From the IMG/VR virus record IMGVR_UViG_3300005615_000002, positions 4,159 through 68,158 of that record: a DNA stretch of 64,000 bases, one strand, 5' to 3'. Position 1 is the stretch's first letter; each line of letters opens with the position of its first letter. Origin of the DNA: a virus (Duplodnaviria; Caudoviricetes). The position numbers and the translations under genes are program-made. Of the stretch, positions 2,469 through 56,289 are shown one piece after another. The notes under the pieces were generated by a model. It was not told where the DNA came from. It did no database searches and saw only the letters and a list, made by a program, of their open reading frames with translations.

Positions 2469-5064
2469 GTTTGTTAGTGGTGAGGGTCCAGAAGATGCCT
2501 ATGTGATGCTTGTTGGTGAGGCTCCTGGGCGAATGGAAGCATCTATAGGACGCCCTTTTTGTGGTGTAAGTGGGCAGGAACTCAATAGATACCTTCTAAT
2601 GCAGGCTGGTATAAGACGGCAGGATTGTTACATCACAAACGTAGTCAAGTACCGCCCTGATGAGGAAAATTCTGACCCCACAATTGAAGATATAGCTCGT
2701 GACGAGCCATATTTATTGGCTGAAATAGATCAAGTAAAACCCAAGATAATAGTTCCCGTAGGCAGAATTGCGGCTCAATACTTTCTTGGCCCAATTGACA
2801 TGGAATTCGAATATGGACTACCTCATTGGTCTGATAAATTCGATTGTTACATATTTCCAGTGTATCATCCCGCAGCCGGATTACATCAGGCGGATAGATA
2901 CTCTAAACTTATCTACAATGGGTTCAGGCGGTTAGGACTATTTCTTAATGGCCAGCTAGATAGAACACAAGATATACCCGCTAACTATCATAATAGAACT
3001 AGTTTTATCTTAGCTATTGAAATGGCTATTGATACAGAAGGTTATCCAACCAACCCTTGGGGATTGTCATGGTCTACAAATCATGGTGAGGGGTTTGTAT
3101 TAACTCATAATAATTTTAATAAATGGCTTATACCTCCAGAAAAAATAATCTTCCATAATGCTCTTTGGGATCTAAAAGTCCTACGCGGCATGGGTATAGA
3201 AATACCCCATAACAAAATAGAAGACACAATGCTTATCTCCCATTTGCTATGTGTTGAGCCCAAGAAACTTAAAGCTCTTGCCTATCGTGAAGCTGGCATG
3301 GAGATGGAGGAATATAAAGAGGTAATTAAAGAGGCTGATGAAAGAGTATCCCGAAATTACCTGGAACGAGTTTATAGCTCCAGTCTGTGCTCTGAATGCG
3401 GAGGCCGTGGAGAGTCTACAAGACCATGGAAACGAAATCCAAACAAATTTACCAAAGAAAAATGCAAACGATGTGATGGAGATGGGACAACCCTCCCTAA
3501 ACCCGAGTCTCAACTCGTATTCAACTCGGATTTCACTGCCAAACTCTATACCCCTGAAAGTACTGGTAGAAGACTTAGAGCATTTCTATCGAGTAATAAT
3601 AACTATCGAGATAGATGGTACGGACTTTCTAGTAACATCAGGAGCAGTATCGAAGTCAGCTTTGGGCAATTCCCAGAAGTAAGTCTAGATGATGTCGAGC
3701 CTAAAGAAAGGGCCATTAACTACTCTGCACGTGACGCTGATGCTACACTAAGGGTATATCACAAACTACGGCCTAGAATAACAGAAATGGGTCTAGAAAA
3801 GGCATATGAGATAGACCTAGGCTGTATACCTATTATTGATCGTATGCATCAGAATGGCATTTTAATAGATAAGCAATACTTCCGAGATTTAGATGCCAAA
3901 TTTGAAAAAGAGCAGTATTTAGTTCTTCAAAAAATGTATGATGAGGTTGGAGTTTATTTCAGCCCTACCTCACCTCCACAGATGAAACGTGAATTAGCCA
4001 AATTAGGCATTAAAAACCTAGATTCTACAAACGAGCGTACATTACAACTACTGAAAATACAAACAGACAATCCAAAAGTCAAAAGTCTTATTGATCTCGG
4101 TTTGGAGTACAGAGAACTCAGTAAGATGCGGGGAACATACACATATAGGCTAATCAATGAAGCTGATGAAAATTCTAGAATTCACACTACGTTTATTTTG
4201 TCTGCTCAGGAGGGTGAAGATTCTGCTGAGGCGCCATCTACGGGACGTCTCTCTTCCAGGAATCCTAATCTACAAAATATTCCGGTAGGACAAGGCCGTG
4301 GTGAGATGATCCGGGCTGGCTTCATTGCTAAGCTTGGATGCAGTCTATTATCTGTGGACCTTTCCCAGATTGAGCTTAGGGTAGGTGCCCACCTAGCTCA
4401 TGAAAGAAACATGATAGAAGCATTTAAGAGTGGTAAAGACTTGCATACCTTTACTGCTTCTAAAATGTTTAATGTGCCTTACGATCAGGTAGACAAAAAA
4501 AAGCACCGTTACCCAGCCAAATCTATTAATTTTGGTATTTTCTATGGAATGTCTGAATATAGATTACAGTCAGAACTAGCTGTTGAAGGTATCATAATTA
4601 GTTTAGAAGAAGCTAGAGAATTTATAAAAGCATGGTTCTCTATTTATCCTGGAATAAATGAATACATGCATAATGTTCAAGCAGAAGCCCGTCAGAATTA
4701 CTTTGTACGGACTATGTTTGGGCGTATTAGATATTTACCTAATGTACATTCTAAAGATCCCAGAGCACGTGAAGAGGCTTTAAGACAGGCGGGAAATCAC
4801 CCCGTTCAAGGCAGTAGTGGGGATATTCTAAAAATTGCTATGGCAAATATTCATAAAAAAGTCTATCCCGAGTTTAAGGCTATGAATAAATGTTTTGAAC
4901 CACTATTGTCAATTCATGATGAAATTATATTTGAAGTTGATGATGAAATAGCGGAATTAGCCTCTGCAATGGTTGCATATGAGATGGAACATGCTGTAGA
5001 ATTAGATGTACCACTACTCTCCTCTCATGTTATTGCAAAGGATTGGAGTAAATTAAAGGATTAA
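2458..5064 (+). CDS. polA: Family A DNA polymerase with N-terminal family-4-like uracil-DNA glycosylase domain and 3'-5' exonuclease
   Basis: UDG motifs GEAPG..E...G.PF.G.SG, ITNVVKYRP, YHPAA. Exo motifs IDTEG, FHNALWD, YSARDAD. Pol motifs TGRLSSRNPNLQNIP, DLSQIELR, AKSINFGIFYG, VQGS, IHDEI. ATG 2458 preferred over TTG 2443. Confidence 0.93.
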   Translation: MIGKFVSGEGPEDAYVMLVGEAPGRMEASIGRPFCGVSGQELNRYLLMQAGIRRQDCYITNVVKYRPDEENSDPTIEDIARDEPYLLAEIDQVKPKIIVPVGRIAAQYFLGPIDMEFEYGLPHWSDKFDCYIFPVYHPAAGLHQADRYSKLIYNGFRRLGLFLNGQLDRTQDIPANYHNRTSFILAIEMAIDTEGYPTNPWGLSWSTNHGEGFVLTHNNFNKWLIPPEKIIFHNALWDLKVLRGMGIEIPHNKIEDTMLISHLLCVEPKKLKALAYREAGMEMEEYKEVIKEADERVSRNYLERVYSSSLCSECGGRGESTRPWKRNPNKFTKEKCKRCDGDGTTLPKPESQLVFNSDFTAKLYTPESTGRRLRAFLSSNNNYRDRWYGLSSNIRSSIEVSFGQFPEVSLDDVEPKERAINYSARDADATLRVYHKLRPRITEMGLEKAYEIDLGCIPIIDRMHQNGILIDKQYFRDLDAKFEKEQYLVLQKMYDEVGVYFSPTSPPQMKRELAKLGIKNLDSTNERTLQLLKIQTDNPKVKSLIDLGLEYRELSKMRGTYTYRLINEADENSRIHTTFILSAQEGEDSAEAPSTGRLSSRNPNLQNIPVGQGRGEMIRAGFIAKLGCSLLSVDLSQIELRVGAHLAHERNMIEAFKSGKDLHTFTASKMFNVPYDQVDKKKHRYPAKSINFGIFYGMSEYRLQSELAVEGIIISLEEAREFIKAWFSIYPGINEYMHNVQAEARQNYFVRTMFGRIRYLPNVHSKDPRAREEALRQAGNHPVQGSSGDILKIAMANIHKKVYPEFKAMNKCFEPLLSIHDEIIFEVDDEIAELASAMVAYEMEHAVELDVPLLSSHVIAKDWSKLKD

Positions 5065-47588: not shown

Positions 47589-47963
47589 ATGACAACTTGC
47601 AGTATATGTAGACGGATATATAGGTATAATAGATTTAAAGGTCATACTAAAACTAAGTGCAATTCGTGCATGGTTAATATTAGACGTTTTAAACTGAAAA
47701 ATACATGTGTACAACTATTAGGTGGAAAATGTTACGAATGCGGTTATACAGAGTGCATAAATGCTTTGGAATTTCATCACATAAACCCAACGACCAAATG
47801 TTTTGAAATAAGTGGTTCACATGCGCGTTCTTGGAATATGATAGAGACAGAATTAAAGAAATGTAAATTACTATGTGCTAACTGTCACAGAAAAGAACGT
47901 TGCAGCAGTAATTATAACTGTAAACATGCACCCGTGGTGTACGGAGCACGGAAAGTCTTATAA
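47589..47963 (+). CDS. HNH (homing) endonuclease
   Basis: CYECG..LEFHHINP..KCKLLCANCHR; N-terminal CxxC motifs. Confidence 0.85.
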   Translation: MTTCSICRRIYRYNRFKGHTKTKCNSCMVNIRRFKLKNTCVQLLGGKCYECGYTECINALEFHHINPTTKCFEISGSHARSWNMIETELKKCKLLCANCHRKERCSSNYNCKHAPVVYGARKVL

Positions 47964-48020
47964 ACTTTATAAACGCCAGATTAGCGTACGGACTGAGTTC
48001 AACTCTCAGCGGGTGTACCA
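47928..48020 (+). tRNA. tRNA with UAU anticodon (nominal Ile) and long variable arm
   Basis: Acceptor gcacccg/cgggtgt, A73, encoded CCA; anticodon arm aaagt-ctTATaa-acttt; 24-nt variable region with acgc/gcgt stem; T arm ctgag-ttcaact-ctcag. Confidence 0.85.
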
Positions 48021-48137: not shown

Positions 48138-48515
48138 ATGGAAATATCTAACCGTGATATTGCATGGTATGAACTGGCTCTAAAAGTAGCTGCTGATAGT
48201 AATGCATATGATCGCCACGGATGCGTATTAGTGCGCAGTGGAACGGTTCTAGGGGTTGCTACTAATCGTCAAGGTATTAGCCATCCTGTTAGTCAATCTT
48301 TTAATAAAGGTGGAGTACATGCAGAACAACGGTTACTATCAAGAGTAAAAGATTGCACAGGGACTACGCTATACTCTGCCAGAGATCACGTATATAATCC
48401 GGTTAGTTTTCCATGTGTGATGTGTGTTCAACTGATTTGTGATGCTAAGGTCAAATGGGTTGTATACCATGATGGTTTCAAAATATGCAAGGCTAGAATA
48501 CAACGTTATACATAA
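48138..48515 (+). CDS. Zn-dependent cytidine/dCMP deaminase-family protein
   Basis: RHGCVLV, VHAE, PCVMC motifs. Confidence 0.85.
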   Translation: MEISNRDIAWYELALKVAADSNAYDRHGCVLVRSGTVLGVATNRQGISHPVSQSFNKGGVHAEQRLLSRVKDCTGTTLYSARDHVYNPVSFPCVMCVQLICDAKVKWVVYHDGFKICKARIQRYT

Positions 48516-48785
48516 GTGTATGGGAGGTCATTAATGGATACTACAACCATTGGCAGGATACATGAAGATTTAATAAGAAAACAAGGAACAGTTGAGCAGA
48601 CAACGAATTCAGTAATTGTTAGATGGCGTCACTATTCAGGAATATCTCCCCTAGTTGCTAAAACCTATACTCCTGAAACCCTGATACTAGCTATAGAAAC
48701 AGCAACTAAGAAATGCGCGGAACATGCCACCAGAGAGCTGCAAACATTATATGGTTATGTTGCTTTGTGGCAGAGTCTTACATAA
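48516..48785 (+). CDS. Hypothetical protein
   Basis: 89 aa ORF; alternative ATG 48534 after GGGAGG. Confidence 0.6.
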   Translation: MYGRSLMDTTTIGRIHEDLIRKQGTVEQTTNSVIVRWRHYSGISPLVAKTYTPETLILAIETATKKCAEHATRELQTLYGYVALWQSLT

Positions 48786-48799
48786 TATTTATGGCTTCT

Positions 48800-49280
48800 A
48801 GCTTAATCTGTGCCATGGTAGAGCGAAATAATACCAAATAAACAGTATCCCTACCAAAAACTAGATTAACATTGTTCTTTAAGGATAATGCTCCTTTACA
48901 AAAGCATCGTTATGACTAGGCTATTCGTGAACCGCCTAGCTCACTAGTAGCAAGGTCAACCCAGCGGTAAAGAGTTGATAAATGACAGAGTTCTCCTCCG
49001 TTGATGAGAACGAATAGATAAAAGGCTGGGTAACAAGTCTATCAACTTACTCTATTAGATATTTTTACATAAATTCAAGGGTTAAATACAACAGTAATAT
49101 TGGCTTCTTACTTAACCCTCTTCAACTATTAATTGGCAAACCCAAGATTTGGGTCAACACGTATAGCTACAGGCTAGCCTCTGAGAATATCACGATATTT
49201 TCCGTGAACACTCTTGTAAGGTGTGATACGTGAGTAGGTTGTAGGGTTCTAAGAAGCCAATATTACTGTTGTATTTAAAA
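48800..49280 (+). ncRNA. Candidate large structured non-coding RNA
   Basis: About 520-nt gap with no credible + strand ORF, with more than 10 complementary segments, including a perfect 29-bp inverted repeat 49082-49110/49250-49278 and crossing stems. Strand inferred from the flanking genes. Confidence 0.65.
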
Positions 49281-49309
49281 GAAAAGGAATTATAAGGAAA
49301 TGTGAGCGT

Positions 49310-50383
49310 ATGAAAAAGGCCGGTATAAACAAGATTGAAGTTCTTAGCAGTGAAAATCAAACTGTAAGATATAAACTGACTTCTCATTATTGTACTATAG
49401 GATTGGATACGGAATTCCTAGCGTTTAACGCTGGTAAAATTCTTTGGCCTGATGTTGTAGGATTGCCTCAACAGCGTGCTCTCAGTCTCAAAACTACTGG
49501 TGATCAGAGCTATTATGACTTTCATGGTGATGGTTTCGCTACGGAGTTATGCACTAAGCCAGACGTGTGTATTGAACAGCTAATGAATCACGTTGCAAAA
49601 GGATTTATGTGGTGGGGATATACATATGGCGGTAGGCATAACGCTAGTTTTAATGCTCCGTCAGTTTATAACGTTCCCAAAGCTGTAGTGAAAGCTGCTT
49701 CAGATGAATCTAAAAAACTAGGTTGTATGCCTTCCTTTAATGTATATGGAGATCCAGGAACACCGGAAAGTCTTAGTGATACACAACGTACTACCGGATG
49801 TCATCTTCATATGTCACACCCAGCTTTAGCCGAAGAAACTAACGCTAAGAACCTAGTTAAATGGGCAGATATATTAGTAGGATGTGTGTGGACTTATATT
49901 TCCCCAGAAGATCCTAATATCGAACAACAGCGAAGAAAGGCATATGGAAGAGCGGGGGAGTTTCGATGGAAGGATTACTCTGAAGATAAAATACATAATA
50001 GACATCTTCTAAGCGAGTTTAAACAGGGAGTAGAATACAGAGTTTTGCCAGGGATGGTATTACATCATCCAGTATATTTTTCTTTAATGTTTAATCTATA
50101 TCGAAACGCATTAAAGACTGCAATACTGCATGGAACTCCTGATGAAACTTTATCCCTTATGGCAAAAGATGCAATAAACAACGCAGATAAAAACCTGTCA
50201 CAGGAGGTTATAAATACTATCCCATTTACTTTGAAAAGCGCGGCTTTACTTCGTTATCTACGGCGAAGGACACTAGATGCTACAAATATGTATAAATGGG
50301 CCAGGCTTGGGGAAATGACTAAAGGCCATCAGAAGTTTGCTATGAATGAAGATTATCGTAGAAATGAGGTCAAAGATGTTTAA
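49310..50383 (+). CDS. phiEco32-like COOH-NH2 ligase type 2
   Basis: IGLDTEF, DGFATEL, TTGCHLHM, RRKAYGRAGEFR.K, GVEYRVL. Confidence 0.8.
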   Translation: MKKAGINKIEVLSSENQTVRYKLTSHYCTIGLDTEFLAFNAGKILWPDVVGLPQQRALSLKTTGDQSYYDFHGDGFATELCTKPDVCIEQLMNHVAKGFMWWGYTYGGRHNASFNAPSVYNVPKAVVKAASDESKKLGCMPSFNVYGDPGTPESLSDTQRTTGCHLHMSHPALAEETNAKNLVKWADILVGCVWTYISPEDPNIEQQRRKAYGRAGEFRWKDYSEDKIHNRHLLSEFKQGVEYRVLPGMVLHHPVYFSLMFNLYRNALKTAILHGTPDETLSLMAKDAINNADKNLSQEVINTIPFTLKSAALLRYLRRRTLDATNMYKWARLGEMTKGHQKFAMNEDYRRNEVKDV

Positions 50384-56137: not shown

Positions 56138-56289
56138 TAAGTTGTTTATTATCAACAAGTTCTTACCTCATAGTATATTAGTACTAATATCGATAAGTAC
56201 TTAGTGTATTGTAGAGTTCGTACGTAGTACTTACCGACATTTATACTAATATACTAACATGTGGGAAACTATTGAAAACAAAGGGACTT
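56138..56289. repeat. Cluster of palindromes and inverted repeats (candidate origin/operator)
   Basis: 16-bp palindrome 56175-56190; taagtactta 56194-56203; 13-bp IR 56171-56183/56244-56256; flanking imperfect inverted motifs 56138-56161 and 56267-56289. Confidence 0.6.

What the first reader, a model, noticed from the sequence alone, without database searches (positions are those of the whole stretch)
49078..49280. Perfect 29-bp inverted repeat closing a branched RNA-like structure just before the peptide-ligase cluster
Seen: ttaaatacaacagtaatattggcttctta (49082-49110) and its exact reverse complement (49250-49278). The stem continues inward (aaccct/agggtt, caact/ggttg, cacgtat/atacgtg) into a multi-branch head with hairpins acccaa/ttgggt, tcacg/cgtga and acac/gtgt. 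An alternative hairpin, agggttaa/ttaaccct (49078-49085/49112-49119), is mutually exclusive with the long stem. The element ends 31 nt before the ligase ATG. Inference: an undescribed phage ncRNA or conformational switch tied to the amidoligase operon. Alternatives are a TTAA-flanked MITE, or a retron-like a1/a2-closed RNA whose RT lies outside the window.
Basis: partly seen in the sequence, partly recalled or inferred. Interest (0 to 1): 0.85.

Follow-up and report, generated by a model that had tools for sequence, protein, structure and literature searches.

The report
Conserved folded RNA before phage ligase operon
The perfect 29-bp inverted repeat is the closing stem of a roughly 200-nucleotide folded RNA that nine related soil phages keep, in shape rather than in sequence, at the head of their amide-ligase gene cluster; it matches no catalogued RNA family, and it is neither a jumping element nor a retron.

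Summary
The arms 49082-49110 and 49250-49278 are exactly complementary. This is the only perfect long inverted repeat in the window, and it occurs once in the complete 68-kb phage genome.

Eight other metagenomic phages have a COOH-NH2 ligase 45-57% identical to this one. All eight carry an equivalent element at the head of the same operon.
- **Closing stems:** they share about 27% sequence identity, yet each pairs with its own partner (93%, against 40% for other phages' partners). They contain many G-U pairs and no A-C mismatches, so the + strand is the folded one.
- **Shared inner architecture:** a long rod, a junction motif UGGC(A/U)AA, hairpin P2, covarying helices P3 and P4, an almost invariant internal loop (CAGYCUC / GNGAACACU), and a variable hairpin P5.
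- **P4 covariation:** 93% paired, compensatory changes in 7 of 8 pairs, reached by 0 of 500 shuffles.

No Rfam family matches. The genome has no reverse transcriptase and no second copy of the element, and no relative with this operon layout lacks it, so the retron and MITE readings fail. The proposed alternative "switch" hairpin is not conserved.

My best reading is a new RNA leader or processing element of the ligase operon. Its rod is a likely RNase III substrate and its invariant loop a likely recognition site. The RNA structure is well supported. The function is inferred, and no RNA data exist.

The parts
49082..49278 (+). Whole element (197 nt): a rod-closed three-way-junction RNA
   Evidence: Folds at -77 kcal/mol, z = -8.6. 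Equivalent elements occur in 8 related phages.
49082..49110 (+). P1 5' arm (29 nt)
   Evidence: Exact reverse complement of 49250-49278. Across 8 loci each arm pairs with its own partner at 93%, against 40% for other loci's partners.
49250..49278 (+). P1 3' arm (29 nt)
49114..49127 (+). 5' strands of the inner rod: P1b AACCCU (49114-19) and P1c CAACU (49123-27)
   Evidence: MFE and constrained folds. The rod totals 40 bp here. In the relatives it is 35-45 bp in L006, L007, L009, L010 and L012, 23 bp in L257 and 16 bp in L008. The unconstrained count for L011 is unreliable.
49237..49248 (+). 3' strands of the inner rod: P1c GGUUG (49237-41) and P1b AGGGUU (49243-48)
49133..49140 (+). Junction motif UUGGCAAA (consensus UGGC(A/U)AA)
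   Evidence: Found at the same place in 8 of 9 loci; L010 has a divergent version.
49140..49154 (+). P2 hairpin ACCCAA-GAU-UUGGGU
   Evidence: A hairpin sits at this position in most relatives. It is tiny or absent in L006 and L010.
49158..49164 (+). P3 5' strand CACGUAU (pairs with 49226-49232)
   Evidence: Counterparts with different sequences in 7 other loci, all pairing.
49226..49232 (+). P3 3' strand AUACGUG
49168..49173 (+). P4 5' strand UACAGG (pairs with 49213-49218)
   Evidence: Covariation: 93% of cells paired, 7 of 8 pairs with changes on both sides, 0 of 500 shuffles as high, slid controls 35-51%.
49213..49218 (+). P4 3' strand CUUGUA
49174..49181 (+). Conserved internal loop, 5' side: CUAGCCUC (consensus CAGYCUC)
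   Evidence: A, G, C, U and C are invariant in 9 loci.
49183..49202 (+). P5, the variable apical hairpin (GAGAAUAU-CACG-AUAUUUUC)
   Evidence: The segment between the two conserved loop strands is 18-74 nt in relatives and has no sequence conservation.
49204..49212 (+). Conserved internal loop, 3' side: GUGAACACU (consensus GNGAACACU)
   Evidence: Eight of nine positions are invariant in 9 loci.
49219..49225 (+). 3' bulge between P4 and P3 (AGGUGUG; G-Y-U-K-R-like in relatives)
49279..49309 (+). A-rich spacer with the Shine-Dalgarno sequence AAGGAA and an AUG-UGA start-stop (49300-49305)
   Evidence: Read directly from the sequence. Spacers are 25-48 nt with an SD-like motif in the five relatives measured, L006, L007, L010, L011 and L012.
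49310..50383 (+). First gene of the operon: phiEco32-like COOH-NH2 ligase. It is followed by ATP-grasp, Amidoligase_2 and class-II GATase genes, up to 55092.
   Evidence: Pfam and PHROGs. Homologues were found.

Best explanation
The inverted repeat is helix P1 of a roughly 200-nt RNA transcribed on the + strand as the leader of the phage's amide/peptide-ligase operon.

**Shape.** The RNA is a three-way junction made of:
- a 35-45-bp rod (P1, P1b, P1c);
- a junction strand UGGC(A/U)AA followed by a small hairpin, P2;
- an arm P3-P4 leading to an almost invariant asymmetric internal loop (5' CAGYCUC / 3' GNGAACACU), capped by a free-to-vary hairpin, P5.

**Shown.** The fold, the strand and the link to the operon are conserved in nine phages whose ligases are only 45-57% identical.

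**Inferred mechanism.** The element acts in cis at the RNA level.
- The rod exceeds two helical turns of perfect or near-perfect duplex, so host RNase III probably cuts it. That would separate the ligase-operon message from the upstream early transcript and give it a defined 5' end.
- The invariant loop is probably a specific recognition site, most likely for a protein, that sets how much of the operon is expressed.
For: **The repeat is real and unique.**

**Same position in relatives.** In seven relatives (L006, L007, L009, L010, L011, L012, L257) a long closing stem with different sequence lies directly upstream of the ligase gene. The spacer is 25-48 nt in the five measured. In the eighth, L008, one small ORF lies between the element and the ligase.

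**P1 is conserved in structure only.** Over the outer 19 bp in 8 loci, each arm pairs with its own partner at 93% and with other loci's partners at 40%. Slid controls give 34-45%. The arms are 27% identical. There are 8 G-U pairs and no A-C.

**The + strand is the folded one.** The rods hold 31 G-U pairs and no A-C mismatch, leaving out L011, whose unconstrained fold is unreliable. In five relatives the + strand folds 13-22 kcal/mol better than the - strand.

**P4 covaries.** 93% paired, 7 of 8 pairs compensated, 0 of 500 shuffles as high.

**P3 pairs in 8 loci with different sequences.**

**The core is specific.** A covariance model of the core scores the nine elements at 38-71 bits. The next best hit in 227 kb is 17 bits.

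**Controls.** About 240 chance hits to the sequence motif in IMG/VR lack the P4 pairing and lack the ligase.

**Context.** All genes from 45.6 to 64 kb are on the + strand. No terminator-like site lies nearby on that strand. An idealised E. coli RNase III substrate is 22 bp (PMC3867540).
Against: - No RNA data exist. Only two DNA metagenomes hold the sequence.
- Neither RNase III cleavage nor any binding partner has been shown.
- No convincing promoter was found, so I cannot say whether the element is a 5' leader, an internal spacer of a long transcript, or a 3' end.
- In L008 the rod is only about 16 bp.
- The ribosome-binding site lies outside the structure, so direct translational control is not evident.
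- The operon proteins of unknown function show no RNA-binding domain.
Confidence: 0.5

Rival explanations
1. A stable RNA that acts in trans. The rod serves only as a processing stem, like the stems flanking 16S and 23S rRNA. RNase III releases a core RNA of about 150-190 nt, which then works elsewhere, for example as a protein sponge, as a 6S-like decoy for RNA polymerase, or as a scaffold or cofactor for the ligase enzymes.
For: - Rod length is fairly constant at 35-45 bp in six of the nine loci.
- The loop and junction are invariant while the periphery varies.
- In L008 a 117-aa ORF separates the element from the ligase.
- A second conserved RNA-like module (domain A) and a tRNA gene lie nearby, as in the stable-RNA regions of other phages.
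Against: - The element always heads the same operon.
- Genomes whose ligase cluster has another layout lack it.
- No 6S or other Rfam hit, even at E = 10.
- No target is known.
Confidence: 0.2
2. A metabolite-sensing riboswitch for the ligase operon. The junction and the internal loop would form the ligand pocket.
For: - It lies in the leader on the same strand.
- Conserved nucleotides sit in junctions and loops, flanked by covarying helices and a variable peripheral stem.
- The operon handles small carboxylates and amines, and glutamine.
Against: - The closing helix is 35-45 bp and perfect in this phage, so strand exchange is implausible.
- No conserved alternative pairing.
- No terminator.
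- The SD lies outside the fold.
Confidence: 0.08
3. A new self-cleaving ribozyme that cuts the polycistronic transcript ahead of the operon.
For: - About 20 near-invariant nucleotides are held by covarying helices, which is typical of small ribozymes.
- Such ribozymes are common in phage genomes (my own knowledge).
Against: - No match to any ribozyme family in Rfam.
- Nothing in the sequence requires catalysis.
- The long rod is unexplained by this reading.
Confidence: 0.04
4. A structure of + strand single-stranded DNA, such as a priming site or an origin, rather than an RNA.
For: - The G-T versus A-C asymmetry shows only that the + strand is the folded strand.
- Single-strand origins of plasmids are rod-like and of similar size (my own knowledge).
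Against: - Tight linkage to the operon start and the co-orientation with the genes.
- P4 carries many G-U pairs, which are weak in DNA.
- The phage has direct terminal repeats, a DNA polymerase and a helicase. This points to ordinary double-stranded replication.
Confidence: 0.05
5. A TTAA-flanked miniature transposable element (MITE).
For: - Perfect 29-bp terminal inverted repeats, TTAA at both ends, about 200 bp, non-coding.
Against: - One copy in the complete genome.
- Absent as DNA from the phage and IMG/VR collections.
- Eight relatives have it at the same place. Their arms are 27% identical, with compensatory changes and strand-specific G-U pairs.
- No relative with this operon layout lacks it.
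Confidence: 0.01
6. A retron-like msr/msd RNA closed by a1/a2 repeats.
For: - A long inverted repeat closes a structured non-coding region.
Against: - No RVT_1 match anywhere in the complete 68,158-bp genome, while the control genomes did match.
- The downstream gene is a COOH-NH2 ligase in all nine loci.
Confidence: 0.005

Closest known systems
RNase III processing signals between genes of phage T7-type polycistronic mRNAs (R sites)
   Same: Both are hairpins in intergenic spacers of co-oriented phage genes. Both are conserved as structure rather than sequence. In both, an internal loop sits between two helices and the duplex is long enough for RNase III.
   Different: This element is about four times larger. 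It has a three-way junction, a 35-45-bp rod and some 20 invariant nucleotides, and it occurs once per genome at one particular operon. Cleavage is not shown.
Processing stems flanking 16S and 23S rRNA
   Same: Sequences on either side of a folded RNA pair into a long duplex that RNase III cuts to release the RNA.
   Different: The enclosed RNA here is about 110-240 nt and of unknown role. It sits in a phage messenger context.
6S RNA (ssrS, co-transcribed with the downstream ygfA gene in E. coli)
   Same: Both are rod-like RNAs of about 200 nt whose 5' and 3' ends pair. Both are encoded directly upstream of an enzyme gene on the same strand.
   Different: No hit to any 6S model. This RNA has a branched junction with a hairpin instead of a plain central bubble. 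The comparison rests on my own knowledge and was not otherwise tested.
Riboswitch aptamers
   Same: Both lie in a leader. Both have conserved junction and loop nucleotides, covarying helices and a variable peripheral stem.
   Different: The closing helix is 35-45 bp instead of 4-8 bp. There is no expression platform and no conserved alternative pairing.
Bacterial MITEs such as Correia or ERIC elements
   Same: Both are about 150-200 bp and non-coding, with terminal inverted repeats of 26-29 bp and TA-rich ends.
   Different: This element is single-copy and positionally orthologous in diverged phages. Its arms have diverged with compensation, and it has a conserved inner core.
Retron msr/msd non-coding RNA
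   Same: A flanking inverted repeat (a1/a2) closes a structured RNA.
   Different: The genome has no reverse transcriptase, and a ligase gene lies downstream.

Membership tests
MITE | Several to many copies per genome or lineage | tested here: not met
   One copy in the window and in the complete 68-kb genome. No DNA match in the phage or IMG/VR collections.
MITE | Empty-site alleles in relatives, with target-site duplication | tested here: not met
   All 8 relatives with this operon layout carry the element at the same place. The TTAA is part of the palindrome, so a duplication cannot be read.
MITE | Terminal repeats conserved in sequence between copies | tested here: not met
   The 5' arms are 27% identical on average, yet each pairs with its own partner at 93%.
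Retron msr/msd | A reverse transcriptase gene next to the RNA or elsewhere in the element | tested here: not met
   PF00078 finds nothing in the complete genome, while the control genomes match.
Retron msr/msd | An a1/a2 inverted repeat closing the RNA | tested here: met
   29-bp repeat. This alone is not diagnostic.
Any Rfam 15 family (riboswitches, ribozymes, 6S, GOLLD/ROOL, HEARO and others) | A covariance-model match | tested here: not met
   At gathering thresholds only a tRNA matches in the window. At E up to 10 on 48600-49450 there is no credible hit. At E up to 1, none of the eight relatives' elements matches a family; the only hit is an unrelated tRNA gene in L006.
RNase III processing signal | About 22 bp or more of near-regular double-stranded RNA | tested here: met
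   29 perfect bp here. Rods of 35-45 bp in six of the nine loci. Substrate size taken from PMC3867540.
RNase III processing signal | Cleavage that depends on RNase III | not testable with these tools
   No RNA run holds the sequence. The phage encodes no RNase III of its own.
Riboswitch | An expression platform with mutually exclusive pairing | tested here: not met
   The alternative hairpin is not conserved. There is no terminator. The SD lies outside the fold.
Riboswitch | Specific ligand binding | not testable with these tools
   Needs in-line probing or a similar assay.

The most novel reading that the evidence does not exclude
The element is the first member of a new class of functional RNA with its own activity. 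It could be a ligand- or protein-responsive regulator, a ribozyme, or an excised RNA that works together with the ligase/amidotransferase enzymes as scaffold, cofactor or substrate. In that case it would be more than a processing hairpin and would be dedicated to the still uncharacterised phage amidoligase pathway.
Probability: 0.12. Interest if true: 0.8.

Novelty: new variant of a known kind. Interest (0 to 1): 0.58.

Why it matters
Phage amidoligase / COOH-NH2 ligase / ATP-grasp / amidotransferase clusters were predicted years ago to make peptide-like modifications, but they remain biochemically obscure (my own knowledge of the comparative-genomics literature).

- **A handle on the pathway.** A dedicated, strongly conserved RNA at the head of such an operon shows how and when the pathway is switched on. 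It also provides a compact probe for finding the pathway's protein or small-molecule partners.
- **A new RNA family.** The element is a well-supported uncatalogued RNA family, with nine members, three covarying helices and an invariant loop. It can be modelled and searched for.
- **Correct classification.** It shows that a perfect inverted repeat that looks like a transposon can be a selected RNA helix.
- **Annotation.** Gene callers can run through it. The ligase call in L009 is over-extended across the RNA.

Tried and rejected
- **DNA similarity searches.** The 525-nt spacer found nothing in the phage collection. The arm found nothing in IMG/VR.
- **Pattern scans of IMG/VR for the core motif.** These gave more than 230 hits on both strands. 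They are chance matches: almost none have the P4 pairing and none has the ligase.
- **Search for more family members.** IMG/VR, JGI metagenome and GTDB genome scans for the ligase added only a few loci. A scan for the neighbouring conserved module found only a contig I already had.
- **More distant ligase loci.** L014, L016-L019, L258 and L259 (38-48% identity, other operon layouts or coding sequence upstream) lack the element.
- **Sequencing runs.** No RNA holder is listed. Two rhizosphere DNA metagenomes hold the sequence. The second one's contig stops at 48938, so it says nothing about the element.
- **MAFFT full-length alignments (A2, A6, A8, A10).** These were not structure-aware. I therefore scored P1 and P3 with my own end-justified scripts. 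The P3 helices were picked by hand, so that figure is biased upward.
- **Promoter.** No convincing sigma-70-type promoter lies on the + strand near the element. No T7-type RNA polymerase was found, but that search rang in no control genome, so it is uninformative.
- **Small ORFs between the two RNA modules in some relatives.** They are unrelated to one another.
- **Operon proteins of unknown function.** They show no informative Pfam hit.
- **Literature.** Full-text searches found no description of an RNA linked to amidoligase clusters.

Full report
**1. The observation**

The two arms, 49082-49110 and 49250-49278, are 29 nt long, perfectly complementary and 139 nt apart. No shuffle of the window gives such a match. 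It is the only perfect long inverted repeat in the 64-kb window.

The 221-nt stretch folds at -77.3 kcal/mol, with z = -8.6. In this phage the minus strand folds equally well, so the strand had to be settled by comparison with relatives.

The element lies at the 3' end of a 525-nt stretch with no ORF of 30 codons or more on the + strand (48786-49309). It ends 31 nt before the ATG of a 357-aa gene.

**2. Context**

The window is most of a complete 68,158-bp virus record with direct terminal repeats.

- **Downstream:** a co-oriented cluster of a phiEco32-like COOH-NH2 ligase, a 130-aa unknown, an ATP-grasp enzyme, a 223-aa unknown, an Amidoligase_2 enzyme and a class-II glutamine amidotransferase.
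- **Upstream:** a tRNA-Ile(UAU), an HNH-like ORF, a dCMP deaminase and an 89-aa ORF.
- **Orientation:** all genes from 45.6 to 64 kb are on the + strand.

**3. Relatives**

DNA searches found nothing. The ligase has 43 homologues at 36-57% identity in metagenomes, several of them on contigs of about 65-71 kb. I fetched the loci I could.

- In L006, L007, L010, L011 and L012 a long inverted repeat lies 25-48 nt before the ligase start. The arms are 19-31 nt and enclose 147-191 nt. The arm sequences are unrelated to those of the window.
- L009, L008 and L257 have the same thing.
- In L009 the automatic gene call runs through the element.
- In L008 a 117-aa ORF sits between the element and the ligase.

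That makes nine loci with the element, in phages whose ligases are 45-57% identical.

**4. Shared architecture**

All nine loci contain two nearly invariant strings, CAGYCUC and GNGAACACU, separated by 18-74 variable nucleotides. Around them the layout is:

- **P4:** a helix of 5-9 bp with a different sequence in each phage directly encloses the two strings. Examples are UACAGG/CUUGUA, GAUGCAAA/UUUGCGUU, GAUUGUGG/CCACAAUC and UUGGCUAGG/CCUAGCCGG.
- **P3:** a second helix just outside P4 pairs in eight loci, again with different sequences.
- **3' bulge:** a G-rich bulge of 4-10 nt lies on the 3' side between P4 and P3.
- **Junction and P2:** a junction strand UGGC(A/U)AA is followed by a small hairpin, P2.
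- **Rod:** P1, P1b and P1c total 40 bp in this phage and 35-45 bp in L006, L007, L009, L010 and L012. The rod is 23 bp in L257 and 16 bp in L008. The unconstrained count for L011 is unreliable.

Forcing P4 and the open loop costs only 2-6 kcal/mol relative to the free minimum-energy fold.

**5. Statistics**

- **Core model.** A covariance model of the core (R1) scores the nine elements at 38-71 bits. The best other hit in 227 kb is 17 bits.
- **P4.** On the model-guided alignment 93% of cells pair, and 7 of 8 pairs show changes on both sides. No shuffle in 500 reaches the observed values for pairing, compensated cells, pair types or the covariation score. Sliding the partner gives 35-51% pairing.
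- **P1.** I used an end-justified comparison of the outer 19 bp in eight loci. Each arm pairs with its own partner at 93% and with other loci's partners at 40%. Slid controls give 34-45%, and the arms are only 27% identical.
- **Strand.** The outer P1 has 8 G-U pairs and no A-C. The rods have 31 G-U and no A-C, leaving out L011's unreliable unconstrained fold. In five relatives the + strand folds 13-22 kcal/mol better than the minus strand.

A palindrome maintained at the double-stranded DNA level would show no such asymmetry. The folded molecule is therefore the + strand, which is the sense strand of the operon.

**6. What it is not**

- **Any Rfam 15 family.**
- **A MITE.** There is one copy in the complete genome. 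The copies in relatives are positionally orthologous, with diverged and compensated arms, and no relative with this operon layout lacks it.
- **A retron.** The complete genome has no reverse transcriptase, while the control genomes match.
- **An intrinsic terminator.** No U-tract follows the stem, and the scan finds none on this strand.

Relatives with a more distant ligase, or with another cluster layout, lack the element. This includes a 97%-complete 63-kb genome.

**7. How it probably works**

*Shown:* a conserved + strand fold that heads one type of amidoligase operon.

*Inferred:*
- The rod is longer than the 22-bp idealised RNase III substrate (PMC3867540). The phage has no RNase III of its own, so the host enzyme is the obvious actor. 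It would cut the rod, detach the operon message from the upstream transcript, and excise or trim the core.
- The invariant asymmetric loop is held between covarying helices and capped by a free-to-vary hairpin. That looks like a specific recognition site, most likely for a protein.

I put about 0.5 on this cis-acting processing and regulation reading. I put 0.2 on an excised RNA that acts in trans, and smaller odds on a riboswitch, a ribozyme or a single-stranded DNA element. None of these can be separated without RNA data, and none exist: only two rhizosphere DNA metagenomes hold the sequence.

**8. Novelty**

Full-text searches found no description of an RNA associated with amidoligase clusters. 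A survey of over ten thousand candidate phage and virus RNAs does not mention these genes.

Earlier notes of this scan describe other uncatalogued phage leader RNAs on other DNA, and none describes this one. Later checks of those notes gave low odds to bold functional readings, so I have kept mine modest.

I class the element as a new RNA family of a familiar general kind, a structured phage leader or processing element, with an unusually well-supported fold.

Noticed in passing
window 48900-49050: A second conserved non-coding module lies just upstream. It has a hairpin CUAGGC/GCCUAG whose loop contains GAAC. It also has two crossing helices (ACCCAGC/GCUGGGU and GAGUUGAU/AUCAACUU), which form a pseudoknot and covary in L007 and L009. 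A strict motif search finds its first block in 8 of the 9 loci that carry the main element. It has no Rfam hit. In four relatives it is separated from the main element by small ORFs that are unrelated to one another.
   Followed up: partly
window 56145-56282: A large imperfect palindrome (57-nt arms, 75% complementary, 24 nt apart) lies inside an ORF-poor stretch of about 1.8 kb (55.6-57.4 kb), ahead of the helicase region. It may be an origin or another RNA.
   Followed up: no
window 47928-48020 and 47589-47963: A 93-nt tRNA-Ile(UAU) with a long extra arm is overlapped by an HNH-endonuclease-like ORF. Relatives L006 and L017 also carry a tRNA-Ile(UAU).
   Followed up: no
L009 4001-5368: The automatic ligase gene call (455 aa) starts inside the RNA element. 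Homology to the other ligases begins only about 190 nt into the call (near 4190), so the call is over-extended at its 5' end.
   Followed up: partly
window 49294-49312: An AUG-UGA start-stop pair (49300-49305) sits between the Shine-Dalgarno-like AAGGAA and the ligase ATG at 49310.
   Followed up: no
window 48364-48938 and 49912-50062: A second rhizosphere metagenome holds a relative of this phage that is roughly 93% identical, at low depth. Its contig ends before the element.
   Followed up: partly
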